Shown here: positions 47,946-62,621 of the stretch, one piece after another | How the letters are laid out: each line of letters begins with the position of its first letter | Numbering within the stretch: position 1 is the first letter of the stretch | Notes under the pieces: model-generated | Told to the model about the DNA's origin: nothing | The model's input: only the letters and a program-made list of their open reading frames with translations | Database searches by the model: none | IMG/VR virus record: IMGVR_UViG_3300027804_002057 | From: a virus | Direction: 5' to 3' (one strand) | Length of the DNA stretch: 64,000 bases | Made by a program: the position numbers and the translations under genes

Positions 47946-49328
47946 TTATTTAACTTTAAATACCTCAAATCTTTGGCGAGGTTTCCAATTTTCAAATGTA
48001 GATTCAATTCCATCCACTAATGTTTGACACATATTTGTATGTGATAAACCAGCTTCATTAATAAAGAATTCTCTACCAATTAAAGCATTTGCTTTTCTTT
48101 CTTCTTTAGGTGTGTTGTACATTTTTTCGATTGCATCCGCAACATCATGTAAATCAACTCTATCATCCCAAATATAAGGAGTTGGAACTGAACCTGCTAA
48201 TGCCAATGCTCTACTCCAAACAGGAATAGCCCAAGAACCAGGTTTTGCTTTTTCTTCCCACTTTCTCCACTCATGCAGAGAACCAATTTTTATATAATCA
48301 TCCGCAACTAATACATTACCCTCAACTTTAAATCCACATTGGTCTTGCAATCCGCCTGTTACGTTTACGATGATTGGAGTTCCTGCCATTACCGATTCTG
48401 CAGTTGCTAATCCAAATCCTTCGTTGTTAGCGATGTTAATTGTTGCATCTACCATATTGTAGATAAGATTTAACTCTTGTTGAGGTCTTCTCTTTTCAGA
48501 AAATTTAATATTAACATCAGGTGCAATTGCTTCAATAACTGCCGGTAAATCCGTACCATTATCATCCACAGGTTGAGTGTGCATTAATAACAAACACTTA
48601 TCTGCTTTTTCTTTACCAATTCTATCACAAAATAATTTATATGCATAGATTACATCAGATGGTTGCTTTCTTCTAATATTGCGATTTGACCAATAAAGAA
48701 TGAAATCATATTTTTTATCACCAACAACATCTTTGTAAAACTCATCAGATACATCAGCTGGTTTGTATATATCAGTATTAATACCATGTGGTACATAACT
48801 TACTTGCCAATCTGCTTTTGGTTTCCAAGTTGGTTTATCAACTCTAGCACCAATTCTTTTAATAATACCATAAGTTTGGCGAGAGATACAACCAATCCAA
48901 TCACAACTTTCATAGAAGTTACGATTATACATTGGGTCTGGCAAATCATCCCAAATTGCGTAGAATAAAAGAGGAACATTTTGTCTGATTTCATGCTCTA
49001 TATCATACAACCATGTCCAATAGCGAGGGTCAGTAAAGTGTAGGATAGCATCAGGTCTTTCTGAATTAATCAGCTGACGTATTAAATCAGCGTTACCATA
49101 TCCATTCCAAGGTAAAATTTTTACATTTGCATCTTGTATTCCATAGTTTTGTCTGATGTCTTCACTAACATCTAAAATCTTTCCAGCTTCTGGATGGTTG
49201 ATTGCAGCTCCTACTTGAAACCAATCGTATTTATGTACTGTCCCTAATACTAATTCTTTGGACATTGTAGCGATACCACTCGCCATTCTTAAATCATCTG
49301 AAAGTAACAATATTTTTTTCTTTGCCAT
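47946..49328 (-). CDS. GT4-like glycosyltransferase
   Basis: LSDDLRMASG, VPHGIN, NRNIRRKQ, NEGFGLATAE (EX7E), TGGLQDQ. Confidence 0.88.
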   Translation of the reverse strand: MAKKKILLLSDDLRMASGIATMSKELVLGTVHKYDWFQVGAAINHPEAGKILDVSEDIRQNYGIQDANVKILPWNGYGNADLIRQLINSERPDAILHFTDPRYWTWLYDIEHEIRQNVPLLFYAIWDDLPDPMYNRNFYESCDWIGCISRQTYGIIKRIGARVDKPTWKPKADWQVSYVPHGINTDIYKPADVSDEFYKDVVGDKKYDFILYWSNRNIRRKQPSDVIYAYKLFCDRIGKEKADKCLLLMHTQPVDDNGTDLPAVIEAIAPDVNIKFSEKRRPQQELNLIYNMVDATINIANNEGFGLATAESVMAGTPIIVNVTGGLQDQCGFKVEGNVLVADDYIKIGSLHEWRKWEEKAKPGSWAIPVWSRALALAGSVPTPYIWDDRVDLHDVADAIEKMYNTPKEERKANALIGREFFINEAGLSHTNMCQTLVDGIESTFENWKPRQRFEVFKVK

Positions 49329-50488: not shown

Positions 50489-50520
50489 TAAAGATACGAA
50501 AATTATCCGATATTACCAAT
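50489..50520 (-). promoter_or_regulatory. Bacteroidota-type promoter (-33/-7)
   Basis: ATTG-N20-TATCTTTA ending 4 nt before ATG. Confidence 0.6.
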
Positions 50521-50969
50521 TAAATTTTCAACTTTAATTTAGTAATTTGCTTAGGGTCAGTACCATAAGCTTCCGCAATTTCTTTGATATGAGTTTTACC
50601 TGCGGTTGTTTGGTAAAGTATATGAACATAATCTTCAGCCTCTAACTTAGATACTTCATAGTATTTAGCTATTAACTCAATTACCCAACCTTCGTACTTA
50701 TCTGCCGAAGCTGGTTTCATATATTTTAAAAATGCTCTTGTCTTTGGTATTAATCCAATCAACGCAAGATACATTGCTTTTGGTGGAGCCTCCTGAATGT
50801 AAGGTGATATATCTGCTATCAATTCAATCCAATCCGGCTTCATAGAAAGAAAACGGAGTATCATATAGTTACTCCATGTTTTTTTATCACTTTCATCAAG
50901 CTTATCCCAATACTTTGGGTCTTTATCTTGTGTTATTGCGTTAATATGGTCAAATAAAGTTTTAGCCAT
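50520..50969 (-). CDS. Clamp loader small subunit (T4 gp62-like)
   Basis: LFDHINAI, YMILRFLSM, YYEVSKLEAEDY; near large subunit. Confidence 0.75.
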   Translation of the reverse strand: MAKTLFDHINAITQDKDPKYWDKLDESDKKTWSNYMILRFLSMKPDWIELIADISPYIQEAPPKAMYLALIGLIPKTRAFLKYMKPASADKYEGWVIELIAKYYEVSKLEAEDYVHILYQTTAGKTHIKEIAEAYGTDPKQITKLKLKI

Positions 50970-51274: not shown

Positions 51275-52213
51275 TTATATTACGTTTAAAATTTGTATTA
51301 ATGTTGATGCTGCTATAATTTCTTTATCAATTGCTACCGCAGATTTAGCAATACTATCACCTAAGATAAGAATTACACCGGATGTATTATCAGCTGCATA
51401 TTCATCTACTTTATCATAAAGAAGTGTGTACAATTCTGAAAATTCTGATGCTCTACTATCAATAATAGCCTGTCTTAGTTTCATATATTTATTTCTCTTA
51501 TCATCATTTGATTTAAGAATATCCAATACTTTTAACTTATAATCATTTTCTAATAGATTTTGTACATCTACTTTCAACTTACCTTTATGAGAATTCAATT
51601 GGCAAGTGTTGATTACTTTACGAATATCAGGATAACTAGCATCAATGATTGGAACTAAATCTTTTACATCAAACTCCACACCTTCAGCTTTCAAAATTTT
51701 ACTCATTTGAATAGCCACATCTTTTTTAGTTGGTGGGATAATTTGGAAAGATTGACATCTACTTTGAATTGGTTCAATTACTTTCTCCACATAGTTACAA
51801 GTCAAAATGAATCTACAATGTTTACTAAATGTTTCCATTAAGTTTCTTAGGATAGCCTGAGCGTTTTGTGACATGTAATCAAACTCATCCATTATAATAA
51901 TCTTAAATGGCTTGAATCCCATTGATGATGCAAAGTTCTTTACTTTGTTACGAACTGTATCTACGTTGTTTTCATCCGATGCGTTAATAATGATGTAATC
52001 ACAATCTAATGAATTAACAATCAATTTTGCTAATGTGGTTTTACCCGTACCCGCTCTACCATAAAGTAACAGATGCGGTACATCACCACTTTCTAAATAA
52101 GTTTCTACTTTTGATTTTAAGTGCTCATTACCTACATAATCTTCTAACTTATTAGGTCTATATTTTTCAACCCACAATGAGTGGTTGTTTTCTTCTTGCT
52201 GATATTCGAACAT
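51275..52213 (-). CDS. Clamp loader AAA+ subunit (gp44 / RFC small subunit-like)
   Basis: LWVEKYRP, GRAGTGKT, INASD, MDEFD, SRC. Confidence 0.93.
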   Translation of the reverse strand: MFEYQQEENNHSLWVEKYRPNKLEDYVGNEHLKSKVETYLESGDVPHLLLYGRAGTGKTTLAKLIVNSLDCDYIIINASDENNVDTVRNKVKNFASSMGFKPFKIIIMDEFDYMSQNAQAILRNLMETFSKHCRFILTCNYVEKVIEPIQSRCQSFQIIPPTKKDVAIQMSKILKAEGVEFDVKDLVPIIDASYPDIRKVINTCQLNSHKGKLKVDVQNLLENDYKLKVLDILKSNDDKRNKYMKLRQAIIDSRASEFSELYTLLYDKVDEYAADNTSGVILILGDSIAKSAVAIDKEIIAASTLIQILNVI

Positions 52214-52220
52214 AATTTTT

Positions 52221-52655
52221 TTATTTTCCAGTTGAACCGAATCCACCTTCGCCTCTTTCGGTGTTTGTTAATTCATCTACTTCTTTAAATTCAATTGGTG
52301 GATATGGTATAATCATAATTTGAGCAACTCTATCACCAACGATATAGGTATGCCCACCATCAATTTGGGATACACCTTTTTTATTAAATGTTGCCTGTAA
52401 TTCACCTCTATATTTACTATCAACCACACCAACACAATTTGATAATGATAAATCGGTATTTCTTACTGATGAACGAGGGAATACTAATCCTACAAATCCG
52501 TCAGGTATTTCTAATGCAATGCCCAATCCATATGTAATTTGTGTTTTAGTATCTAATATAATTGATGTTGCAACCAAATCCATTCCAGCATCACCTTCTT
52601 TGGCGTATGTTGGAATTACTGCATTAGGCTTCAGTTTCTTTATCTTCACTTCCAT
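52221..52655 (-). CDS. dut: Trimeric dUTPase
   Basis: DAGMDL, PRSS, GVVDSKYRGE, RVAQ, RGEGGFGSTG. Confidence 0.95.
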   Translation of the reverse strand: MEVKIKKLKPNAVIPTYAKEGDAGMDLVATSIILDTKTQITYGLGIALEIPDGFVGLVFPRSSVRNTDLSLSNCVGVVDSKYRGELQATFNKKGVSQIDGGHTYIVGDRVAQIMIIPYPPIEFKEVDELTNTERGEGGFGSTGK

Positions 52656-53004
52656 TTTGTAAATTTTTAATAGCTTCTCTTTGTTTTTCTCTTAGTTCTT
52701 TACCTTCGGATGAAATCTCTCTAGCAAATATTTTAAATATTTTACCAGTCTTTCCATTTTGAAAAGTAATATAAGAATCTTTAACATTGGTAATTGTAAA
52801 AATTACTTTTGGGTCTTCATCTTTATTTAACTCATCATCAGTCCATGCAAATACTTGTGGTTCATCTTCATCAAACTGAAAACACCATTCGCATTCTTCA
52901 TACTTTTCCTGATTCAATGCAATTTGTCCAATTGGTTCTAATTGTTGAGATACTTCCTCAACTTTTACTTCTTCTACTTTTTTTGTTTTTTTAGCCTTTG
53001 CCAT
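52624..53004 (-). CDS. Hypothetical protein
   Basis: Intact ORF within replication operon. Confidence 0.7.
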   Translation of the reverse strand: MAKAKKTKKVEEVKVEEVSQQLEPIGQIALNQEKYEECEWCFQFDEDEPQVFAWTDDELNKDEDPKVIFTITNVKDSYITFQNGKTGKIFKIFAREISSEGKELREKQREAIKNLQNGSEDKETEA

Positions 53005-53016
53005 ATTATTTTGTTT

Positions 53017-54228
53017 TTATCTTCCTACTTCTGATAGGTATTTTGCTTTCATTTCTTCCCAACTAATTCCGATAGCATCTATGTAGAATAAGTGTTCAGG
53101 TTTAATTCTTCCTTCATCATGTAGTTTTGTATATCTACTGATTGCGTGTTTCTTCCACCATTTGTTGATGTATTCAGTACCTTGCTTAAATTTATCTTTA
53201 AGGATTAATTGGTCTTCGGTAATTTTATCACAAAGGAAATCAGTACCATTTTCATACATCATAGCCATATACACACCTCTCTTAAATCCGTGATGATATT
53301 CAGTTGCTTTGATACCACACTCCTTAAAGATTTGTCCTAATATCTTTTGTTTGATACCACTAACAGGTCCGTTAGCTTCATATCCCATATTAGCACCATT
53401 ACGAGCTCTCTCATCTGAAATGTTATCTTTGTACCATTCAGCACGATTTTCTTTTAACCATTGATGCCAAGGGTCATAATACTTATCATCCGGCTTAATA
53501 CTAATTTTACCAGCTGATTCTCCTAATGTTTTAAATAAAGGGATACCATTGTATTGAGAATGGATACCATATAGAGATGTTGTACCTACTGCTATAAGAA
53601 CGTTTTCATATTTTTTCTTCCAATACTCTCTAACTTCAGGCACCGTAGTCATCATAGCTATTAACTTACCACCTAAGAAGTTATATCCTAAAGGTTGAGT
53701 ACATACAATAGTTGAAGCAATAGTTGTGTTGTTTAACTTACCCTTCTGAAACTTATCTTCTTTTGACCAACCAATAAAGTTATCTCTAACACCTAATGCG
53801 GTTACATCGGATGCCAATGAAATTTGTCCTAATAATTTTCCACTTGTCCTATCCTTTACATTAATCTTTACATTACGACCAGGGTTTGCTGTAAAATCCA
53901 TTGTGTGAATCATACGTCTTACTGCTGCCCATTTAGTAGATTCCTTAGGGTCTTCCACAATCTCAACGTAAGGGTCTAACGATTCAATTTCTTTTATCGT
54001 TAGCTCCTTATCATTGATATTTGTTGGTTTCCATTGAGAGTCATAATACGATGCTATTTGGGCTTTAGCCTGAATCATTGACGGTTCTTGCAACTCCACC
54101 CACTTTTTGTATAGTGTTTGTTCTTGCACAGACATCGTCATAAGATAGTCCATATTTTCTTTTAACTTTTGTTTCTCAACATCAAAGTCAAAGATAGGTT
54201 TTTGTGGTTCAGTTTCCCAAAAGCTCAT
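53017..54228 (-). CDS. DUF4338 / Druantia DruA-like protein
   Basis: NPGRN, RDNFIGW, QPLGYNFLGGKLIAM, TTSLYG..SQYN, LGESAG, HGFKRGVY. Confidence 0.75.
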   Translation of the reverse strand: MSFWETEPQKPIFDFDVEKQKLKENMDYLMTMSVQEQTLYKKWVELQEPSMIQAKAQIASYYDSQWKPTNINDKELTIKEIESLDPYVEIVEDPKESTKWAAVRRMIHTMDFTANPGRNVKINVKDRTSGKLLGQISLASDVTALGVRDNFIGWSKEDKFQKGKLNNTTIASTIVCTQPLGYNFLGGKLIAMMTTVPEVREYWKKKYENVLIAVGTTSLYGIHSQYNGIPLFKTLGESAGKISIKPDDKYYDPWHQWLKENRAEWYKDNISDERARNGANMGYEANGPVSGIKQKILGQIFKECGIKATEYHHGFKRGVYMAMMYENGTDFLCDKITEDQLILKDKFKQGTEYINKWWKKHAISRYTKLHDEGRIKPEHLFYIDAIGISWEEMKAKYLSEVGR

Positions 54229-54233
54229 ATTAA

Positions 54234-54929
54234 TTATTTAATTTCTACTAAGTAATAGTTTGATGTGTAATCTCCATCAGTAAATGATACATGTGATAAT
54301 CCTTTAGATGAGATTTTCAATGAAGATGATTTAGAACCTTTGTTAGCGGTTAAGATTGCTTTCAAATATTTTGCTGAGAATGCAATTGGTTCAACATCTT
54401 CTTTTGCTGTTGTTTCCACAGCGATTGAAATTCGATTTGAGTTGATTGAAGAATAACCCAAAATGATTTCAGCTTTTTTATCTTTTACAGTAAATGTAAA
54501 AGTATCTGCATCAGCCAATGCACCTTTTGATTTAATAAACTTATTTACAAAGTCATCATTCAAAGTAACTTCTGCATCAAAAGCAGGTAATGCTTTCAAA
54601 TCAGGTACTGCAGGAATCACCGATGGTGCTGCTAACATATATTGTACCTTAGTTCCTTTATCAGAGAACTTAACTGCTCCAGTTGTTTCTTCAACTGAAA
54701 TTGCTTCATCCAATACACTCAACAATCCTTTTAATTGAGATGTAGTGTAAATACCAAACTCACCATTAGGGAAATCAGTTTCAGCAACTGTAACATCACC
54801 TAACAATGTTTTGTCATCGGAAATCATTCTTACTGATAATTCTTTATCAGAAGATTTAATCATAACGGATTCAATCTCACCACCAAGGTTATAACGATTG
54901 ATAAAACCATCAAATTTGCTTTTGTTCAT
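54234..54929 (-). CDS. DNA polymerase sliding clamp (T4 gp45-like)
   Basis: EFGIYTTSQLKGLLSVL, VQYMLAAPSVI, YYLVE end; 231 aa; directly downstream of PolB. Confidence 0.82.
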   Translation of the reverse strand: MNKSKFDGFINRYNLGGEIESVMIKSSDKELSVRMISDDKTLLGDVTVAETDFPNGEFGIYTTSQLKGLLSVLDEAISVEETTGAVKFSDKGTKVQYMLAAPSVIPAVPDLKALPAFDAEVTLNDDFVNKFIKSKGALADADTFTFTVKDKKAEIILGYSSINSNRISIAVETTAKEDVEPIAFSAKYLKAILTANKGSKSSSLKISSKGLSHVSFTDGDYTSNYYLVEIK

Positions 54930-54964
54930 AATTGAAATTTTATATTTTAAAAGTTTATATTACA

Positions 54965-54996
54965 CAAATATACGAAAAATACTTGAAACTACCAAC
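54965..54996 (-). promoter_or_regulatory. Bacteroidota primary-sigma promoter (-33/-7)
   Basis: GTTG-N20-TATATTTG upstream of clamp gene. Confidence 0.75.
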
Positions 54997-57518
54997 TAAA
55001 ATGAAAAGAATTTTTCAGCAGTTTTAGCGGCAGATAGTACCTCACCCCATCCCAATGCTCCATAAAAGTCCTCTAATTTCTTCAATAACTCTCTTTCAAA
55101 GATTTTATCATAATCAATGTATTGAGTTACCAATTCCATAATTTCAGGTGCATCATTATATCCCTTAAATCCAAGTCCTTCCAATCCATATGGATTTTGT
55201 TTTAGATACACCCATTTAATCTTGTCACCATCTCTCATTGGTTCGTATTTAGATGGGCATTTAAAGTGTACCAACAATTGATTGTGAGCAATTGCTGCTT
55301 TAACGTGAGCCGGAGTACCAGATGCAAATTGGAACATTGCCGTTTGGTCTTTTTTCTTTGGAAGATATTTAGATAATTCTTTTACAGCCGAGTTCTTAGC
55401 AATTGAAGTTACATCCATAGTTACCAATGCTTTTTTGAAAGCCTGTATCTTATCGGTTAGTATTTCTTCATTATCACCTTTTAGAATTTGAATAAGAACC
55501 TCACCCATAAATTTACGGAACTCAGCTGGATATGATGAACGAACTACGTCCAACCCTTTAACATCCAATCTATCCATTGGAATACCATTCTCAGCCACAA
55601 TCCATTGAGCGTATCTTTTCTTAGCAATCCAAATACCACTTCGAGATACGAACTCTTTCTTAATTTGGAATCTATGTTTTTCTTTTGCTACATTGAATAT
55701 TTTTTCAGCCAACACATCATAAAAATTATTTAAGAAGTCTTGCGTTTCACCAGCAATACTATCTACTAATTTGGCAATTTCCGAATCTTCTTTTGTTTTC
55801 CAATCAGGGAATCTATGGTCTAAGATAGGTACTGCTGAAAAGAATACTGAATCCGTATCAATGTAAATGTTGTAATCACCACCTTTAGTTCCTAACTCTT
55901 TGTTGTACTTAATGTTAGCCATATCCGCAGTTGATTTAATTACGGTCTGACCTGTTAGTGTTACAGCCTCAGCGTTATCCACATCATAGAATCGGAATGC
56001 CGGCAAACCTAACACACCATAAAGAGAGTTCAATAAGATTTTTTGTACCAACTGTCTTTTCTTATAGAATGCGTACTTCTCTTTGTCACCAGCTTCACCA
56101 AACTTCTTCTCCAACTTACGGAACTCAACACGCTGATTAAACCATAAATCCAAAATATCAGGGATACAGCCGGGCTTATCGGTTTTATATAGAACACCAT
56201 TTGATGCTACCGAACATTTAGCTTCTTCAAATAGTTTCTTTAAGTTTTCTTTTGTGATTTGTCTATCACCAATTGTGTACATATCCACTTCACCCTTCAT
56301 AAACTTTTGTGCATCCCAATCGTTAATCTTACCAATCTTAGTTTCGGGACTGATGTTTACAGTCATAATGATTGATGGATATAGTGAAGTTAAGTCCAAG
56401 TCATAAATCCAATCGTATTTACCAACAATAGGTGCCTTTACATAAGCTCCAATGAATTTTTCTTCATTGTTCTCTCTAATGGCTTCCATACGTTCTTGTC
56501 TATCCGCAGGTTTGTTTGGTGCTACAATGTTCTTACGTTTAAGGTAAGTAAGCATTGCACCTTCTAAATATTTAGATGAATAAACAAAATCTTCATAAGG
56601 AACATGTCCAGCGTGACATATACCTCTACACAAATCAATGAATTGTAATTTTCTATCTAATGAAACTACCAGGTCAACGTCAATCAAGTTATACTCAATA
56701 AACTTTTCAATATCATCTTTGAATAATTGGTCCAAATTACCTTTGTATTCAATCTTACCTCTACCCAATTCTTTCATAGCGATACTATCCAAACGATAGT
56801 TATCCAATTCTGAATATGTGTATGTACGATATAATTGTAAGTAGTCCAAATAAGATACACCTGCCATAAAGAATCTCTTACGATATGGTGACCAAAAACA
56901 CTCACCAATTGGAGATAATCTATTAGCGTGCTTAGCACCTAATAATCTTTTAATACGATTGTACAAATACGGAGTATCGAAATAATCAATGTTCCAACCA
57001 GTTACAATTGTTGGATTAATCATTTCGTATAAATCTAAATACTTTAGAATCATATCCCTTTCATCTCTAAAAGGAATTACAGTTCTATTACCGGTATTAC
57101 TTTCTTTCATCTTACCGGCTTTATCCATAATCAATACCCAAAAATGGTCAGTAGCTGAATCATGCAAACCTATCGCTGTTAATTCATTCTCTGATTTTTC
57201 AACATCAGGTAATCCACTTTCCATCTCAACCTCAATATCGTATGTAAGTGTAATGTGGCCTTCAGATGGTATATCCGAATCGGTATATGTATCAACTAAT
57301 ACTCTTGTTGTTTCAGGTACATCGGATTCAAATAAATCCGGGTCATCTTTTTTAAATTTGAATATCTTAGTAAGCTTATCACCATAAAGAGAAGTGTATT
57401 CACCTCTATCTGCTTTTTCGTAAGCATATCTACTATAAGGGAAAGTGCGGTATCCCAATTTATCATCCCAAATATGCACTAAATTCTTTTCTCTTTGATA
57501 ATAACAATTCTGATACAT
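54996..57518 (-). CDS. Family B DNA polymerase (T4 gp43-like)
   Basis: YDIE, GWNIDYFD, YNLID exonuclease motifs; DLTSLYPS, KILLNSLYG, YIDTDS, KKRY. Confidence 0.97.
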   Translation of the reverse strand: MYQNCYYQREKNLVHIWDDKLGYRTFPYSRYAYEKADRGEYTSLYGDKLTKIFKFKKDDPDLFESDVPETTRVLVDTYTDSDIPSEGHITLTYDIEVEMESGLPDVEKSENELTAIGLHDSATDHFWVLIMDKAGKMKESNTGNRTVIPFRDERDMILKYLDLYEMINPTIVTGWNIDYFDTPYLYNRIKRLLGAKHANRLSPIGECFWSPYRKRFFMAGVSYLDYLQLYRTYTYSELDNYRLDSIAMKELGRGKIEYKGNLDQLFKDDIEKFIEYNLIDVDLVVSLDRKLQFIDLCRGICHAGHVPYEDFVYSSKYLEGAMLTYLKRKNIVAPNKPADRQERMEAIRENNEEKFIGAYVKAPIVGKYDWIYDLDLTSLYPSIIMTVNISPETKIGKINDWDAQKFMKGEVDMYTIGDRQITKENLKKLFEEAKCSVASNGVLYKTDKPGCIPDILDLWFNQRVEFRKLEKKFGEAGDKEKYAFYKKRQLVQKILLNSLYGVLGLPAFRFYDVDNAEAVTLTGQTVIKSTADMANIKYNKELGTKGGDYNIYIDTDSVFFSAVPILDHRFPDWKTKEDSEIAKLVDSIAGETQDFLNNFYDVLAEKIFNVAKEKHRFQIKKEFVSRSGIWIAKKRYAQWIVAENGIPMDRLDVKGLDVVRSSYPAEFRKFMGEVLIQILKGDNEEILTDKIQAFKKALVTMDVTSIAKNSAVKELSKYLPKKKDQTAMFQFASGTPAHVKAAIAHNQLLVHFKCPSKYEPMRDGDKIKWVYLKQNPYGLEGLGFKGYNDAPEIMELVTQYIDYDKIFERELLKKLEDFYGALGWGEVLSAAKTAEKFFSF

Positions 57519-58664
57519 CTATTCACTTAATTTTTTATGTAATACTGAAAACATTTTTGTATCGTTTTCTGATAATTCGTTTGCTCTTTTTAATGCTGCC
57601 AATTCCCTCTCACTTCTATAAGTATCGTCATCTAATATCTTATCAAGTAATTCAAACAATTCTTTTTGGTTATTAAAAAACATACCATTCGGTTCTATTT
57701 CTCTATAACAATCTGAATTATGAAATATCATTGGAGTTCCATTCATCATACAATCCGTTGCAGACACACTCCATCCATAATTTGTTTGTAATGGTTGTAT
57801 TCCAACTTTACATAATTGTAATTTTTCATAGTATGCTTGCTTTGATGCCTCTTTTGTTGTATCAAACCAAGGTAACTTTTTATCCTTATGTTGATATTGT
57901 GGCACCCATACTTTAAAATCTTGTCTATGTTTTTTGTAAGCTTCCATATAACCAACAAACTTATTATAGTTTTTATATCCAGCCGTTCTATGATTGAATA
58001 CAATTATGTTATGCTTATTTGGATTTGGTTGTGATATAATTTTATCTTTCATCACTCCCAAATTCCAAACACATAGTTTTTCATTCAATTTGTTTAAAAC
58101 ATCATCACTAAACCATTGCTTTGCTTCTTCAATAACTTTGTTCTTTTGGTCTTGTGTATTGATAAAGCAAGTATCCATTTGTAGTACACCCAATATTTCG
58201 TTGGGTAACCAAAGTTCTTTTGCTTTACCAGGTCTATTATCTACACCATTACAATAACTCATCTCCCACCAATGACAATAACCAATTATTTTTGTATCAA
58301 CAGTTTTCTTATATCTACCCACCACATTCCAATCAGGCAGATGCGAATAGATAATATCATAATCTGTATTCTTTAACACACCAACTAATTCTTCTGATGG
58401 GAAACATCTCTGATTCATCATATCGCCAGGTATAGGGACTTCAATTTGCTTAACGTTATCTAACATATTAAGCTTTGCACATACATTACCTTTTGGCATT
58501 ACTACATACCAAAAATATTCACCATAATTCTTTAAGGCATTAACGTGATTGAAAAGGACATCCACAAAGGAGTCCTTTTCAATATTTGAGTAGTTAGTAA
58601 TATTTGGTATCACTAATACTTTTCTTGCCGTATGGTAATTAACAGTTGTTTCCCAAAATGACAT
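57519..58664 (-). CDS. GT-B glycosyltransferase next to PolB (candidate DNA glycosyltransferase)
   Basis: YDIIYSHLPDW, IVFNHR, YGWSVSATDCMMNGTP; sits in replication operon apart from glycan genes. Confidence 0.7.
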   Translation of the reverse strand: MSFWETTVNYHTARKVLVIPNITNYSNIEKDSFVDVLFNHVNALKNYGEYFWYVVMPKGNVCAKLNMLDNVKQIEVPIPGDMMNQRCFPSEELVGVLKNTDYDIIYSHLPDWNVVGRYKKTVDTKIIGYCHWWEMSYCNGVDNRPGKAKELWLPNEILGVLQMDTCFINTQDQKNKVIEEAKQWFSDDVLNKLNEKLCVWNLGVMKDKIISQPNPNKHNIIVFNHRTAGYKNYNKFVGYMEAYKKHRQDFKVWVPQYQHKDKKLPWFDTTKEASKQAYYEKLQLCKVGIQPLQTNYGWSVSATDCMMNGTPMIFHNSDCYREIEPNGMFFNNQKELFELLDKILDDDTYRSERELAALKRANELSENDTKMFSVLHKKLSE

Positions 58665-58674
58665 TTAATTTAAT

Positions 58675-60366
58675 TTATTTGTTAGTGAACAACATACCCG
58701 CCACCATTCTAATTTCATCAGGTGTCAATGCAGTTGTTCTATTATCTACATCTAATATATCTAATAAACTTTGTGTTTTACTATACTTTACAAGTTTACA
58801 TACATACTTAACATCATCAGCATCACATCCTGCTGATTTGTTTCGGTTTACTTCATTTAGTATTAATTGACCATTGTACACTTCAGTAGGTCCACCATAA
58901 GTGTATGCTATAATGTGGTCAGCTCTCCATTCTGATTGTGGATAGTCACTAAGTTTCTTACCGGTCTTTCTACATAATCCATTTTGGATAGTATATAATT
59001 CATCTCTTTGTTGCTGAGAGAATTCTCTTGGATTTTTGTTTGCTTTTGAGAATCCCCAGCTTTCAAAGTCAAAACCATCTAATAGTGGCATCAGAGTAAA
59101 CTCCAAGTCATCTATACGAGCACCACCATTGAATACAGAGCGGTATCCATATTCCTCACCTTTGTTTACTTTCTTAGATGTGGTTTTTTTAACCATCCTA
59201 CCATCAGAATCAATAGATTCATATCTTTGGTGCGGATTATGTTTGAAACTCTTTTTACCAGCAAAGAGTGTAATTCTATCTCTAAGTGTTTCTAAGAATT
59301 TTGCTGAATTGAAGTTCTTATCCAATACTTGCCAATTTTGGTTAATCAATCCTATTTCATATATTAGGCAGAATACCTTTTTAATGTTACCTTTCTTCCA
59401 ATTTTGTTTTGCACCAATTTTACCAGTTCTTACAACTCTATCTGTCATAGATAGAATTATCTCAAGATTTTTAATGAATTGGATACCTTCTTTTATTGTA
59501 AGGAATTCATTAAATTCTTCACTCCTATACATTTCCTCTAACGGACCTGCCGTAGAATCTAAACCGGTACATTCGTTACTTGTAAACCCACCTTGCTTCA
59601 TATACAACATACACAATGAAACAATCTCATCGGTTTCTCTTTTTGTTGTTTTCAACCCAATATGGGCCAACTTTTGGCCTACTTTTTCGGAAAGGAATTT
59701 GAAGGCTTCACTACTATCTACTGCTCCATATTTTCTACATAAGTCTGAAACATATGAATTGATTGCGTTTCTCTTATCCGCTGCACTCATATCGTGCAAA
59801 TCGTTTAGTGTTAGGAATATATCTTCCGCCTCATCATCAGATATATTTGAATGTATTGTTAAATCGAAGTATATACTTGTTTGGTATATTTCTTCCAATT
59901 CAGAATGTTTATCGGTAATTTGTTTCCAGCTCATATCACTCAAGTCATATTCGGTTTCAATTCCAGTTTCAGAATTTACCAATGTGATGATTAAGTTTTT
60001 TGGAGTTCTAATTTTGTTTGTGAAGAACGCCAGAATAGTTCTGGAACGATGCCCACCATCCAATATTTCGTAGAATCCATCTTGAGTTAATCTAAGATGA
60101 ATTTTTTGGAATGGTTTAAGTTTTAATACATCTCCTATAAGATGTTGTTGCCATATTTCACCAGTTCCCCACGCCACATCTACATAGTGGTAAGGTCTTT
60201 GGAATTTTGGAGATGGGTTGATTTTACCCTGATGATAATAATCAAGGAATTTTCTTAGAGTCCAATATTGGTTTTGGATGTTTGAGTGCTTTTCTAAATA
60301 CACTCTTTTGAATTCGTTAATGGTTGCGAATCTGATTGCACCATCAAGTAATGGTTGATTACTCAT
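58675..60366 (-). CDS. DUF262 (ParB-like) plus C-terminal HNH protein, GmrSD/SspE-like nuclease
   Basis: PKFQRPY, ILDGGHRS, FLTLN DUF262 motifs; ADHIIAYTYGGPT..NGQLI...NRNKS HNH. Confidence 0.8.
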   Translation of the reverse strand: MSNQPLLDGAIRFATINEFKRVYLEKHSNIQNQYWTLRKFLDYYHQGKINPSPKFQRPYHYVDVAWGTGEIWQQHLIGDVLKLKPFQKIHLRLTQDGFYEILDGGHRSRTILAFFTNKIRTPKNLIITLVNSETGIETEYDLSDMSWKQITDKHSELEEIYQTSIYFDLTIHSNISDDEAEDIFLTLNDLHDMSAADKRNAINSYVSDLCRKYGAVDSSEAFKFLSEKVGQKLAHIGLKTTKRETDEIVSLCMLYMKQGGFTSNECTGLDSTAGPLEEMYRSEEFNEFLTIKEGIQFIKNLEIILSMTDRVVRTGKIGAKQNWKKGNIKKVFCLIYEIGLINQNWQVLDKNFNSAKFLETLRDRITLFAGKKSFKHNPHQRYESIDSDGRMVKKTTSKKVNKGEEYGYRSVFNGGARIDDLEFTLMPLLDGFDFESWGFSKANKNPREFSQQQRDELYTIQNGLCRKTGKKLSDYPQSEWRADHIIAYTYGGPTEVYNGQLILNEVNRNKSAGCDADDVKYVCKLVKYSKTQSLLDILDVDNRTTALTPDEIRMVAGMLFTNK

Positions 60367-60481
60367 AAATAATTTGGTTTACCTATACACCATTTCAAGG
60401 TTTTAGTTGGTTGCTGCTACCTTTTTGTTTTAATTGTAAAGTATTTGCATCAGCATTACAAATACCTTTTGTTTGTAAATA

Positions 60482-60513
60482 CAAATATACGAAGATTTTT
60501 TGATATGGCCAAA
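60482..60513 (-). promoter_or_regulatory. Bacteroidota primary-sigma promoter (-33/-7)
   Basis: TTTG-N20-TATATTTG; heads DUF262-HNH / GT / PolB unit. Confidence 0.8.
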
Positions 60514-60532
60514 CTTTTTTAGTACTTTTTTC

Positions 60533-60557
60533 TAACTTATTGATTATCAATGAGTTA
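60533..60557. promoter_or_regulatory. 25-bp palindromic operator-like site
   Basis: TAACTTATTGATTATCAATGAGTTA; same motif and same offset from promoter as 191-215. Confidence 0.7.
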
Positions 60558-60561
60558 CATA

Positions 60562-61362
60562 TTACCAAAAATTGGCCGCACCTTCTGGTGCTTCGTATGT
60601 AGTTAGGTGATGTACTATTTCTGTATTAAAAGATGCCGTATCTTTTGGGTAAGGTTTGATTTCATGCTTTAATCGTTTCATCAAATCCTTCTTTTCTTTT
60701 TTATCTTGCGCAAGTATCTGAACATATCTATGCTTTGGTGGTTCTTCCCTTCTCCAAAACTCTTTATATCCTTGCTTACCAATTTCTAATTTCAAATGGT
60801 CTAAGTTACCACTACCCCACATTGAGAATACTGTCCTACTATGAATCCATTGATAAGGGTCTTTGTGTAATGATATACCCCAGTTTGGCATCAATGCAAT
60901 ATCCGTAGATAATCCCTGATAAATCCAATTGGTGGCTTGATAGATTCCACCCAAATGCGATTGTCCATTATCAGCGTATGAAAGTAATACCTTTATATTT
61001 TTATCGTGCTCTTTTAACCATTTGAAAGATTGTCCTAATGCATATGATTCAATATTAGAACCATAACCATCATCACAATATAATCGTGTCAATTCTAAAA
61101 TGTTATCTTTGGTTAAACCTTCACAAATAGAAGTTGATGCTTTTGCTCCAACTGGGAAACCATAGATTAAACAACCTATAAGTTTATCACCATCAAAGGT
61201 ATTTGCATCTTCTGATTTGTAATATATTCCAATTGCATATCTACAAGCTGTCCAAGCATGAGTATAATGTTTCTTTACAATCATATCTTTAGCAATACTC
61301 TTTGCTATTGGTGCTACATACACTTTGGATACATCACAATAATTTTTACCTTCTACTTTCAT
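60562..61362 (-). CDS. Mom-like (GNAT-fold) DNA modification protein, paralogue A
   Basis: KKHY, ILELTRL, LLSYADNGQSHLGGIYQATNWIYQG, KHRYV, PYPK. Confidence 0.8.
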   Translation of the reverse strand: MKVEGKNYCDVSKVYVAPIAKSIAKDMIVKKHYTHAWTACRYAIGIYYKSEDANTFDGDKLIGCLIYGFPVGAKASTSICEGLTKDNILELTRLYCDDGYGSNIESYALGQSFKWLKEHDKNIKVLLSYADNGQSHLGGIYQATNWIYQGLSTDIALMPNWGISLHKDPYQWIHSRTVFSMWGSGNLDHLKLEIGKQGYKEFWRREEPPKHRYVQILAQDKKEKKDLMKRLKHEIKPYPKDTASFNTEIVHHLTTYEAPEGAANFW

Positions 61363-61365
61363 ATT

Positions 61366-61620
61366 TTACCAGTACTTTTTACCATCTTTTTTAGCCTGCT
61401 TAGCTTTCTCTAATACCGATAATGATTTTGCCAACTTAGCTTCCTTTTGTTGTTTCTTCATCATCTTATCATAGCCGGCTGGGAATTTGTTTGTTACTTC
61501 TATCGGCCCATTCGGAAATTTATCTAAATCATATTTCCATGTAGATTCAGTACCATCATCATCTATATAAACATGCTGAAACTTACGTGGTTTTTCCGGT
61601 GGTGTTTTAGATACTGCCAT
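61366..61620 (-). CDS. Hypothetical protein
   Basis: ORF behind its own promoter, between Mom paralogues. Confidence 0.65.
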   Translation of the reverse strand: MAVSKTPPEKPRKFQHVYIDDDGTESTWKYDLDKFPNGPIEVTNKFPAGYDKMMKKQQKEAKLAKSLSVLEKAKQAKKDGKKYW

Positions 61621-61634
61621 AACATAATTTTATA

Positions 61635-61666
61635 CAAATATACGAAATTATTTTGAATCTACCAAA
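61635..61666 (-). promoter_or_regulatory. Bacteroidota primary-sigma promoter (-33/-7)
   Basis: TTTG-N20-TATATTTG overlapping 3' end of upstream gene. Confidence 0.75.
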
Positions 61667-62421
61667 TCTATCGGGTCCATTCTATGAACCTCATCAATAA
61701 TATCTAATTCCACCTTTGGATAGGGGAATACCTCATGTTTAAGCGATTTTAAGAGTGCTTTACGCTCCTTCTTATCTTTTGTAAGGATATACACATATCG
61801 GTGCTTACGGGGTTCTCTTTTAATCCAGAATGGGCTTGTAACCATTGTCTGAATTATCTTTGGGTCATTCGTTCCGTACTTCACATAGGATGTTCGAGAA
61901 TGATGCCATTCATCATCTTCACTCCATTTGAAAGACCAACTATCTGACCATCTGATTTTATTACCTTGATATATCCAATTGGTAGCTTGATATACCGTTC
62001 CTAAGTGCCCAGCGTTTGGGTCTGAATAAGATATAAGTGCTTTGATACGAGGTACATTAGTTCTTAACCATTCGAAAGTTTGTCCAACGAACCAACTTTC
62101 AATGTTACTACCATATCCATCGAATACGAATAATCTTGTCAATTCTAATACACCATCTCTAGGAAGTAATTCGGAAATTGATGCTCCGGCATTTCTACCA
62201 ACCGGGTCACCATAACAGGCTACACCAACTAATTGCTCATTCACTCCACTAAAGAATGAATGCTCATCATCGGAAAGATAAAATAAGCCTATGGCAAAGG
62301 ATACCTTTGTCCATATCCCACTGTAATGGTTATTGACAATAATATCCTTTGCAATATTCTTATTGATTTCTCTTATTGAGAATTTGGATGTATCACAATA
62401 TTGTTTACCTTCTACTTTCAT
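61648..62421 (-). CDS. Mom-like (GNAT-fold) DNA modification protein, paralogue B
   Basis: NNHYSG, VLELTRL, LISYSDPNAGHLGTVYQATNWIYQG, KHRYV, PYPK. Confidence 0.8.
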   Translation of the reverse strand: MKVEGKQYCDTSKFSIREINKNIAKDIIVNNHYSGIWTKVSFAIGLFYLSDDEHSFFSGVNEQLVGVACYGDPVGRNAGASISELLPRDGVLELTRLFVFDGYGSNIESWFVGQTFEWLRTNVPRIKALISYSDPNAGHLGTVYQATNWIYQGNKIRWSDSWSFKWSEDDEWHHSRTSYVKYGTNDPKIIQTMVTSPFWIKREPRKHRYVYILTKDKKERKALLKSLKHEVFPYPKVELDIIDEVHRMDPIDLVDSK

Positions 62422-62621
62422 AGACTACCAGACCAAAATTCGTTTAAATGTGCCCAAGTTTTACGTTGAACAATTTTAATCACATTGGCCGGCGAAACTT
62501 TATTGTTACGGGCAATCACCTTTACATTTCGGTGTCCCATATTCCATAATCTTCTGATGTTTAGAACTTGCTCATCTGTCAGTTTAGCGGCAGGATGAGT
62601 TTGCCCTCTTAAAATAGCCAT
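62418..62621 (-). CDS. Stand-alone HTH protein resembling C-terminal DNA-binding domain of HNH homing endonucleases
   Basis: RGQTHPAAKLTDEQVLNIR...IARNNKVSPANVIKIVQRKTWAH. Confidence 0.7.
   Translation of the reverse strand: MAILRGQTHPAAKLTDEQVLNIRRLWNMGHRNVKVIARNNKVSPANVIKIVQRKTWAHLNEFWSGSL

What the first reader, a model, noticed from the sequence alone, without database searches (positions are those of the whole stretch)
53017..62421. Replisome-embedded DNA modification locus: two Mom-like genes, DUF4338/DruA-like, GT-B and DUF262-HNH around PolB and clamp
Seen order (transcription): Mom-B, small ORF, Mom-A, DUF262-HNH, GT-B, PolB, clamp, DUF4338, hypothetical, dUTPase, clamp loaders. Established: Mu Mom is a GNAT-fold enzyme that modifies adenine in replicating DNA; T-even GT-B enzymes glycosylate DNA; DUF262-HNH proteins (GmrSD, SspE) discriminate DNA by modification state; DUF4338 is the uncharacterised DruA domain of Druantia. 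Inference: a multi-enzyme, replication-coupled base hypermodification pathway with a paired nuclease. It would also suggest a DNA-modifying role for DUF4338.
Basis: partly seen in the sequence, partly recalled or inferred. Interest (0 to 1): 0.85.

Follow-up and report, generated by a model that had tools for sequence, protein, structure and literature searches.

The report
Mom-type DNA-modification genes inside phage replisome
A large uncultured T4-like phage and more than 100 relatives keep two Mom-type adenine-modifying enzymes, a third Mom-like-fold enzyme (DruA family) and a fast-changing glycosyltransferase among their DNA polymerase and sliding-clamp genes, and several of them carry the same short aromatic end-peptide as the polymerase, which suggests that they ride on the clamp.

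Summary
In detail: every gene call and the gene order hold.

**Mom paralogs.** Both keep all family-invariant residues, including catalytic R111 and S124 in Mu numbering.

**DUF4338/DruA-like protein.** It folds as a GNAT. Its best match among 48,161 solved chains is Mu Mom (Z 9.9). Profile comparison with Mom is not significant.

**Synteny.** In 76 related IMG/VR loci that span MomA to PolB, a GT of one superfamily always lies between MomA and PolB. It comes in three allelic classes about 28% identical to each other.

**DUF262-HNH.** It is not a fixed partner. It is one cassette of a hypervariable slot, and DUF262-like proteins occupy that slot in 23 of 76 loci.

**Terminal peptides.** MomA ends in an invariant F/Y-W. 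The DruA-like protein and the class-1 GTs start M-x-F-W-D/E. PolB ends FFSF. In the window, 5 of 76 genes carry such termini and all 5 lie in this locus.

**Negative findings.** I found no hydroxymethylase or hydroxylase homologue and no TET in complete relatives, so the GT has no known DNA acceptor.

**Limits.** The scan has noted the same module before on other DNA (e1-5361891 and others).

Verdict: a new variant of Mom-type hypermodification. The single-pathway and paired-nuclease reading is only partly supported.

The parts
62418..62621 (-). o67: 67-aa small protein, 4-nt overlap with the Mom-B start; candidate DNA-binding protein or regulator
   Evidence: Lies upstream of the first Mom gene in every relative inspected. 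phrog_20467 (C-terminal part of HNH endonucleases), E 4e-7. No Pfam hit.
61648..62421 (-). Mom-B: Mom-family GNAT, 257 aa
   Evidence: PF25680 E 3e-43. PDB 8bv8 (Mu Mom) E 7e-11. Invariant H58, Y59, R111, S124, Y159 and H183 kept. Orthologues 62-99% identical in relatives, missing in a few.
61366..61620 (-). 84-aa ORF between the two Mom genes, unknown function
   Evidence: No family in Pfam, PHROGs or NCBIfam. Kept only in close relatives, 66-100% identical. Its KYW end is not conserved.
60562..61362 (-). Mom-A: Mom-family GNAT, 266 aa, with a C-terminal extension ending N-F-W
   Evidence: PF25680 E 9e-45. Catalytic residues kept. W266 is invariant and F265 at least 90% conserved in 25 orthologues, while the preceding linker varies.
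60367..60561 (-). 195-nt intergenic spacer before the DUF262-HNH cassette; left border of the variable slot
   Evidence: The other gaps inside the finding's locus are 66 nt or less.
58675..60366 (-). DUF262 (ParB-like, DGGHR motif) plus Cas9-type HNH nuclease, 563 aa; variable cassette
   Evidence: PF03235 34.7 bits; phrog_1035 at residues 444-522; NsnA PADLOC E 2e-7. Motifs read. Same type only in L063 (98%), L022/L103 (73%) and L010/L012/L087 (29%).
57519..58664 (-). GT4-like GT-B glycosyltransferase, 381 aa, N-terminus M-S-F-W-E-T; stop codon abuts the PolB start
   Evidence: AF2 pLDDT 86. Foldseek: MshA 3c4q E 4e-13, also PglA, BshA, PimA. One GT of this superfamily in 76 of 76 loci, in three classes. 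No homologue in cultured phages.
54996..57518 (-). Family B DNA polymerase, 840 aa, C-terminus K-F-F-S-F
   Evidence: phrog_262 E 9e-185; PF00136 and PF03104. Tail conserved down to 52% identity.
54234..54929 (-). gp45-type sliding clamp, 231 aa
   Evidence: phrog_223 E 1e-15. 63-98% identical in relatives.
53017..54228 (-). DruA/DUF4338-family GNAT, 403 aa, N-terminus M-S-F-W-E-T, 5 nt after the clamp gene
   Evidence: PF14236 66 bits; PADLOC DruA. AF2 pLDDT 93. Best of 48,161 PDB chains is Mu Mom 8bv8: Z 9.9, rmsd 3.9, 167 residues. N-terminal M-[SNK]-F-W-[DE] in all orthologues.
52624..53004 (-). 126-aa Lys-rich hypothetical protein
   Evidence: No family. Only in close relatives.
52221..52655 (-). 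dUTPase
   Evidence: PF00692 E 2.5e-21.
51275..52246 (-). Clamp-loader large subunit (gp44-like AAA+)
   Evidence: AAA, DNA_pol3_delta2 and Gp44_lid. The likely true start gives M-F-E-Y-Q; relatives start M-G-F-F-E-E.
50520..50969 (-). Clamp-loader small subunit (gp62-like)
   Evidence: Phage_clamp_A E 6e-5, below the curated cut-off. Position conserved.

Best explanation
This is the replication module of a roughly 250-kb uncultured T4-like phage. It has acquired a DNA base-modification toolkit, which its clade retains.

**Mom-A and Mom-B (inferred by homology).** Both are probably active Mom-type GNATs. By analogy with Mu Mom, they would take an aminoacyl group from a host aminoacyl-tRNA (glycine in Mu) and place it on N6 of adenine in double-stranded phage DNA. 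This would protect the DNA from host nucleases. The two old paralogs (49% identical) probably differ in DNA context or donor, or act as a heterodimer.

**DruA-family protein (inferred).** It is encoded next to the clamp gene. It is a third GNAT whose fold is closest to Mom, and it most likely acylates DNA or a replisome component.

**GT (weakest step).** The GT4-like glycosyltransferase just upstream of PolB is replaced by divergent alleles among close relatives, as arms-race genes are. It may add a sugar to DNA or to a Mom/DruA-made adduct.

**Clamp docking (inferred from sequence only).** Mom-A (C-terminal F/Y-W) and the DruA-like protein and class-1 GTs (N-terminal M-x-F-W-D/E) carry short hydrophobic-acidic end-peptides on variable linkers. 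These resemble the polymerase tail (FFSF). I infer that they dock on the phage sliding clamp, so that modification follows the fork.

**DUF262-HNH.** This nuclease is not part of the core. It is one allele of a hypervariable slot between Mom-A and the GT. It is probably a modification-sensing or competition nuclease, or a selfish cassette.

Shown here: gene identities, folds, residue conservation, synteny and motif conservation.
For: **Mom genes**
- Family membership and catalytic residues.
- Mu Mom mechanism and essential residues: PMC13219725.

**Paralogs**
- Both are conserved across relatives.
- All 334 cultured-phage records with a Mom match have a single match.

**DruA-like protein**
- AF2 pLDDT 93. 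In an exhaustive structure search Mu Mom is the top hit at Z 9.9, against 8.7 or less for generic GNATs.
- DUF4338 was already called a GNAT in PMC10853773.
- One depositor annotated a cyanophage homologue as 'methylcarbamoylase mom' (H50).
- Homologues are fused to ParB_N. From background knowledge, ParB_N commonly accompanies phage DNA-modifying enzymes.
- The gene sits beside the clamp in nearly every relative locus that holds both genes (exceptions: L069, L070). In cyanophage S-CAM9 it lies inside the clamp-loader operon.
- In L069 and L070, Mom-A is directly followed by the DruA-like gene.

**GT**
- One GT of this superfamily in 76 of 76 loci, in three classes about 28% identical, while the flanking PolB is 77-96% identical.
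- A TAGT-family DNA-type GT ending KFW follows Mom-A in L044.

**Terminal peptides**
-.
- In the window, 5 of 76 genes carry them and all 5 are among the 11 genes of this locus. My hypergeometric p is about 2.5e-5, and the pattern was chosen post hoc.
- In a complete 252.6-kb relative, 9 of 279 genes carry them. These include Mom-A, PolB, the DruA-like protein, the clamp loader and an EndoVII-like protein.
- T4-family clamp ligands use interchangeable hydrophobic-acidic terminal peptides on divergent linkers: the C-termini of gp43, gp55 and gp33, and the N-terminus of RNase H (PMC3012046, PMC2988020).
Against: - No chemistry or binding data exist.
- hhalign of the DruA-like and Mom profiles is not significant: E 0.056 over 13 columns. 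Foldseek puts Mom only at rank 17 in BFVD, at E 0.03. The Mom link is therefore at fold level only, with a Z margin of about 1.
- Mu R151, essential in Mu, is G in Mom-A and N in Mom-B. It is not conserved in the family either.
- The genes are separable. The Mom pair lies about 6 kb beyond the clamp loader and away from the GT in L045, L048-L050 and L059. MomB is absent in L062, L070 and L076. Most DruA-bearing cyanophages show no Mom.
- The GT fold matches small-molecule and glycan GT4 enzymes as well as, or better than, a phage DNA GT (9iqz at rank 32).
- Complete relatives have a bona fide ThyA only. They have no second thymidylate-synthase homologue, no Tet_JBP and no TAGT.
- An earlier, unchecked note of this scan (e1-5697808) counts about 34 glycan genes in the window; the GT could serve these.
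- Class-2 and class-3 GTs lack the N-terminal peptide.
Confidence: 0.55

Rival explanations
1. The genes are independent neighbours and not a system. The Mom genes are ordinary anti-restriction adenine modifiers. The DruA-like GNAT acts on a protein or small molecule, for example as a replisome regulator or metabolic enzyme. The GT belongs to the phage's large glycan or protein-glycosylation repertoire. The aromatic termini are lineage quirks or serve another partner. The genes cluster only because early and middle genes of T4-like phages are packed together.
For: - The genes are separable in relatives.
- DruA-like genes occur without Mom in cyanophages and pelagiphages.
- The GT's best structural matches are MshA, PglA and BshA.
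A second GT at 47946-49328 is shared with Mel-JY01, which has no Mom or DruA-like gene in the stretch examined around PolB.
- No known DNA acceptor pathway was found.
Against: - Terminal F-W peptides are concentrated in this locus and invariant across divergent orthologues.
- The GT keeps its place next to PolB in 76 of 76 loci while its sequence class is swapped.
- A TAGT with the same tail sits after Mom-A in L044.
- The DruA-like fold is nearest to Mom.
- ParB_N fusions occur in the DruA-like family.
Confidence: 0.3
2. All the genes form one obligatory multi-enzyme hypermodification pathway, and the DUF262-HNH is its dedicated partner nuclease that discriminates modified from unmodified DNA.
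For: - The DUF262-plus-nuclease architecture resembles type IV enzymes such as GmrSD.
- DUF262-like proteins of three subfamilies fill the same slot in 23 of 76 loci.
Against: - 15 of 76 loci have no cassette at all in the slot. Others carry unrelated proteins.
- The window's own type is rare.
- It has its own 195-nt upstream spacer, like a mobile cassette.
- MomB is dispensable in some relatives, and the Mom pair has moved in one subclade.
Confidence: 0.1
3. The phage DruA-like protein is a counter-defence mimic or decoy of the bacterial Druantia DruA protein and not an enzyme of DNA modification.
For: It belongs to the DruA family. Phages often carry homologues of defence proteins; this point is background knowledge.
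Against: - It has a core-like position in the clamp or clamp-loader operon across cyanophages and this clade.
- Many residues are invariant in 45 homologues only 25-48% identical to the window's protein, which suggests an enzyme under purifying selection.
- Homing-endonuclease invasions, typical of essential phage genes, occur in the family.
- No Druantia genes are nearby.
Confidence: 0.05

Closest known systems
Phage Mu Mom (PF25680; PDB 8bv8). A Gly-tRNA-dependent GNAT that makes N6-carbamoylmethyl-adenine in dsDNA (PMC13219725).
   Same: Mom-A and Mom-B are clear family members with the invariant catalytic set and the inserted helical region.
   Different: - Two conserved paralogs in tandem, against one gene in each of 334 cultured-phage records.
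- Located in a T4-like replication module and not at a genome end under Com/Dam control.
- Mom-A has a C-terminal F-W tail.
- Mu R151 and W48 are not kept.
- The upstream small protein o67 has no Cys, so it is not Com-like.
- Donor amino acid and target motif are unknown.
DruA (DUF4338, PF14236) of type I Druantia. Function unknown; recognised as a GNAT domain (PMC10853773).
   Same: Pfam and PADLOC matches over threshold; GNAT fold.
   Different: - Phage-encoded, solo, with no DruB-E nearby.
- Sits between clamp and clamp loader.
- Has a lineage-specific N-terminal M-S-F-W peptide.
- Its nearest solved structure is Mom.
Clamp-binding terminal peptides of T4-family proteins: gp43, gp55 and gp33 C-termini and the RNase H N-terminus (PMC3012046, PMC2988020).
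   Same: Short hydrophobic-plus-acidic peptide at the extreme terminus, joined by a divergent linker. PolB here ends FFSF.
   Different: The carriers here are DNA-modifying-type enzymes (Mom, DruA-like, GT; in relatives also TAGT and EndoVII-like). The motif ends in Trp. Binding is untested.
Phage DNA glycosyltransferases: T-even alpha/beta-GT, TAGT (PF20691), and the arabinosyltransferases of RB69, DLP3 and HY126 (PMC13326640).
   Same: GT-B fold. HY126 GT 9iqz matches at E 5e-10. Allelic diversity occurs at a fixed locus. A true TAGT occupies the neighbouring slot in L044.
   Different: No 5hmC, 5hmU or 5hoC pathway was detected in complete relatives. The model is closer to MshA, PglA and BshA. 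The acceptor is unknown.
GmrSD, SspE and other DUF262 type IV nucleases.
   Same: N-terminal DUF262/ParB-like domain with a DGxxR motif, plus a C-terminal nuclease.
   Different: The motif is DGGHR and not DGQQR. The nuclease is a Cas9-type HNH and not DUF1524. The gene is phage-encoded and is a variable cassette.

Membership tests
Mom (PF25680) | Profile match over the curated cut-off | tested here: met
   148 and 153 bits against a cut-off of 27.1. phrog_1384 E about 1e-47.
Mom (PF25680) | Catalytic and essential residues R111 and S124, plus H58, Y59, Y159, W181/H183 (Mu numbering) | tested here: met
   Invariant in a 15-sequence alignment that includes Mu Mom, Mom-A and Mom-B. D149 is kept in the window's copies.
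Mom (PF25680) | R151, essential in Mu Mom | tested here: not met
   G in Mom-A and N in Mom-B. The position also varies in all other family members aligned, so it is not family-defining.
Mom (PF25680) | Aminoacyl-tRNA-dependent N6-adenine modification of dsDNA | not testable with these tools
   Needs nucleoside LC-MS or an in vitro assay.
DruA / DUF4338 (PF14236) | Profile match over the curated cut-off | tested here: met
   66.1 bits against a cut-off of 27. PADLOC DruA E 4e-17.
Druantia type I system | DruA accompanied by DruB-D and the DruE helicase | tested here: not met
   The neighbours are clamp, dUTPase, clamp loader and PolB. The same holds in relatives.
GNAT superfamily (DruA-like protein) | GNAT core fold | tested here: met
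   VIA-align: 8bv8 at Z 9.9 and 14 further GNAT chains at Z 8 or above over residues about 79-349. Foldseek gives HAT and GNAT hits only.
Mom family (DruA-like protein) | Sequence-profile relationship to Mom | tested here: not met
   hhalign E 0.056 over 13 columns.
GmrSD-type type IV nuclease | DUF262 N-domain with DGQQR | tested here: inconclusive
   PF03235 34.7 bits against 33.2. The motif is DGGHR.
GmrSD-type type IV nuclease | DUF1524 His-Me C-terminal nuclease | tested here: not met
   No DUF1524 hit. Instead a Cas9-type HNH: D-H...N...N, phrog_1035, 6o56 weak.
GT4-like GT-B glycosyltransferase | Two-Rossmann GT-B fold similar to GT4 enzymes | tested here: met
   Foldseek E 4e-13 to MshA, TM 0.68. 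Pfam GT1/GT4 matches are below their cut-offs.
Phage DNA glycosyltransferase | A pathway in the genome that makes a hydroxylated base as acceptor | tested here: not met
   One bona fide ThyA only and no Tet_JBP in 3 complete and 1-2 partial relatives. The window's own full genome is not held.
T4-type clamp-interacting peptide | Hydrophobic-acidic peptide at the extreme terminus after a variable linker | tested here: met
T4-type clamp-interacting peptide | Physical binding to the clamp | not testable with these tools

The most novel reading that the evidence does not exclude
A clamp-tethered, multi-GNAT DNA hypermodification machine. Mom-A, Mom-B and the DruA-family enzyme would each transfer a different aminoacyl or acyl group to bases in newly made DNA while docked on the sliding clamp through F-W end-peptides. 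The swappable GT would then glycosylate the adduct, giving a new class of aminoacyl-glycosyl purine modifications. This would also assign a DNA-acylating activity to the DruA component of Druantia defence.
Probability: 0.15. Interest if true: 0.9.

Novelty: new variant of a known kind. Interest (0 to 1): 0.7.

Why it matters
The chemistry of Mom was solved only in 2026, and it showed that a GNAT can use charged tRNA to modify DNA. This widespread aquatic phage clade keeps two Mom paralogs and a Mom-like-fold DruA enzyme inside its replisome operon. That makes two open questions directly testable:

- What other donors and targets do Mom-like GNATs use?
- What does the DruA/DUF4338 domain of Druantia do?

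The shared end-peptides suggest a general way for phages to recruit DNA-modifying enzymes to the sliding clamp. The variable GT and the nuclease slot mark a hotspot of phage-host or phage-phage conflict.

Tried and rejected
- Megablast of the locus against cultured phages found nothing.
- No whole genome is held for the window.
- hhalign of DruA-like against Mom was not significant.
- Foldseek of the DruA-like model against PDB gave only weak HAT and GNAT rows.
- The GT has no tblastn hit in cultured phages.
- An apparent Mom-A/GT fusion in L024 and L033 was an artefact of my ORF-extension script. The ORF listing shows separate ORFs.
- T4 late-promoter TATAAATA has no copy in the locus and is not enriched in the window. 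Sigma-70 and terminator scans were no better than shuffles.
- No tRNA genes were found in the window or in a complete relative, so there is no phage-supplied donor tRNA.
- No Tet_JBP or TAGT was found in five large relatives. The Tet_JBP control rang nowhere, so that absence is weak.
- Proteins of the variable slot were compared by hhalign. Only sf3 with sf4, and sf1 with sf7, are related; the rest are unrelated.


Full report
**Observation.** The window is AT-rich (about 31% G+C). All 76 non-overlapping ORFs that I called lie on the minus strand. Between 62421 and 50520 the order is:
- Mom-B
- an 84-aa ORF
- Mom-A
- a 195-nt spacer
- DUF262-HNH
- GT
- PolB, with no gap after the GT
- clamp
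- DruA-like, 5 nt after the clamp
- a 126-aa ORF
- dUTPase
- clamp-loader large subunit
- a 103-aa ORF
- clamp-loader small subunit

This rests. Family assignments come from Pfam, PHROGs, NCBIfam and PADLOC. Upstream lie a ribonucleotide reductase fragment, a DUF5522 protein, a thioredoxin and a 67-aa protein (o67) that overlaps the Mom-B start.

**What the phage is.** No cultured phage matches at the DNA level. The closest PolB is that of Microcystis phage Mel-JY01, at 52%. Around its PolB (about ±12 kb examined) that phage has PolB, clamp and clamp loader without Mom, GT or DruA-like genes. IMG/VR holds more than 200 contigs with the same locus, and three of them are complete genomes of 214-266 kb. 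The nearest cultured Mom is from Polaribacter phage P12002L, at 44%. One orthologue cluster carries the source name 'Polaribacter phage'. This hints at Bacteroidota hosts, but it is only a hint.

**Mom genes.** The mechanism of Mu Mom was established in 2026. Glycine from Gly-tRNA(Gly) is transferred to N6 of adenine in dsDNA after replication, and it then rearranges on the base. R111, S124 and R151 are essential, D149A greatly reduces activity, and an inserted HTH-like region is also required (PMC13219725).
- In my alignment of Mu Mom, six other phage Moms and the Mom-A and Mom-B orthologues, H58, Y59, R111, N121, S124, S146, Y159 and H183 are invariant.
- R151 is peculiar to Mu.
- Both paralogs therefore look active.
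- They are 49% identical to each other and both are kept down to 54% PolB identity.
- All 334 cultured-phage records with a Mom match have a single match.
- Some relatives lack Mom-B (L062, L070, L076).

**DruA-like protein.**
- It has about 1000 homologues in the representative library. Some are fused to ParB_N and some are invaded by homing endonucleases.
- The AF2 model is confident, with pLDDT 93.
- Foldseek against PDB gives only weak acetyltransferase rows.
- An exhaustive alignment to 48,161 PDB representatives ranks Mu Mom first (Z 9.9, rmsd 3.9 Å, 167 residues). A long list of GNATs follows at Z 8.7 or less.
- Profile-profile comparison with Mom is not significant. BFVD ranks a Mom only 17th.
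- The claim I can support is therefore 'GNAT fold, nearest solved structure Mom'. I cannot claim membership of the Mom family.
- That DUF4338 is a GNAT was already published (PMC10853773).
- In cultured phages the family occurs in 31 records, mostly T4-like cyanophages and pelagiphages.
- In S-CAM9 it sits between the large and small clamp-loader genes.
- Most of these phages show no Mom, because Synechococcus is absent from the leading hosts. The protein must therefore be able to work without Mom.

**GT.**
- The AF2 model (pLDDT 86) matches retaining GT4 enzymes: MshA, PglA, BshA and PimA. The DNA arabinosyltransferase of phage HY126 matches only at rank 32 (PMC13326640).
- One GT of this superfamily lies between Mom-A and PolB in 76 of 76 loci.
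- It falls into three classes about 28% identical to each other, and these are exchanged among phages whose PolB and Mom-A are 77-96% identical.
- Complete relatives have a single, bona fide thymidylate synthase and no Tet_JBP. No known hydroxylated pyrimidine acceptor is therefore evident.
- An earlier, unchecked note of this scan says the window holds many other glycan genes. The GT's substrate remains open.

**Variable slot.**
- Between Mom-A and the GT, and sometimes between the GT and PolB, relatives carry 0-2 extra genes.
- These belong to at least five unrelated families: three DUF262-like subfamilies (motifs DGQQR, DGQHR, DGGHR, DGQTR), a 586-676-aa family, a 425-443-aa family, a PLOD-type GT, and in L044 a TAGT-family GT.
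- Other relatives carry a GHKL-type ATPase between PolB and the clamp.
- The window's DUF262-HNH is therefore an accessory cassette.

**Terminal peptides.**
- Mom-A orthologues all end in [NTK]-[FY]-W, although the preceding 12 or so residues vary. W266 is invariant.
- DruA-like orthologues all begin M-[SNK]-F-W-[DE]. Class-1 GTs begin M-x-F-W-[ED]. PolB ends K-F-F-[SAG]-F.
- In the window only five genes have such termini, and all five lie in this locus.
- In a complete relative the carriers include Mom-A, PolB, the DruA-like protein, the clamp loader and an EndoVII-like protein.
- The TAGT of L044 ends K-F-W.
- In T4, the clamp binds interchangeable hydrophobic-acidic terminal peptides of gp43, gp55, gp33 and RNase H through divergent linkers.
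- The motif is specific to this lineage. Cyanophage and pelagiphage DruA-like proteins lack it.

**Linkage.**
- The core genes are linked to the replication genes but not rigidly to each other.
- In L045, L048-L050 and L059 the Mom pair lies about 6 kb downstream of the clamp loader, and the GT lies several kb upstream of PolB.
- In L069 and L070, Mom-A is directly followed by the DruA-like gene.
- This fits a toolkit of modifiers that share a location, and perhaps a docking platform, better than it fits one obligatory pathway.

**Earlier notes of this scan.** Other windows of the scan recorded the same module and the terminal-peptide idea on other DNA. I re-derived the motif and synteny evidence here, and I treat those notes as leads only.

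**Verdict.** It is a new variant of Mom-type DNA hypermodification, with an attached and testable hypothesis for DruA function and clamp tethering.

Noticed in passing
window 62418-62621 (-): A 67-aa protein (o67) with an ATGA overlap onto Mom-B. It is conserved upstream of the first Mom gene in every relative inspected. It resembles the C-terminal DNA-binding part of HNH endonucleases (phrog_20467). It has no cysteines, so it is unlike Mu Com. It may regulate the Mom genes.
   Followed up: partly
window 61648-61700 (-), Mom-B C-terminus: The Mom-B tail keeps a motif [IV]-H-[KR]-[ML]-[DE]-P-I-[ND] across orthologues 62-99% identical. Its function is unknown, and it differs from the F-W tail of Mom-A.
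   Followed up: no
L044:1207-2016: A TAGT-family (TET-associated) glycosyltransferase ending K-F-W lies directly after Mom-A in one relative. No TET was found in the complete relatives.
   Followed up: partly
L033:5210-6769: A GHKL/MORC-type ATPase (HATPase_c_3) gene is inserted between PolB and the clamp in a subgroup of relatives.
   Followed up: no
L174:13173-13946 (G002): An EndoVII-like 258-aa protein begins M-T-F-W-E-W, the same kind of N-terminal peptide as the DruA-like protein and the GT.
   Followed up: partly
P0141, P0147, P0007, P0009, P0020: Some DruA-like homologues carry GIY-YIG/NUMOD or LAGLIDADG domains, or an N-terminal ParB_N domain.
   Followed up: partly
BFVD hits of model m0ac49b6b21c0: Clear structural relatives of the DruA-like protein occur in giant viruses: Faunusvirus, Yasminevirus and Dasosvirus (E 6e-18 to 3e-9).
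   Followed up: no
G001:C1:186218-187453: The thymidylate synthase match in the 266-kb relative is split into two stretches within one 428-aa open frame. This suggests an insertion in the gene.
   Followed up: no
window 47946-49328 (-): A second GT-B glycosyltransferase, with a weak GT4-conflict match, lies downstream of a PD-(D/E)XK nuclease. It is shared with Mel-JY01, which has no Mom near its PolB, so it probably belongs to the glycan repertoire.
   Followed up: partly
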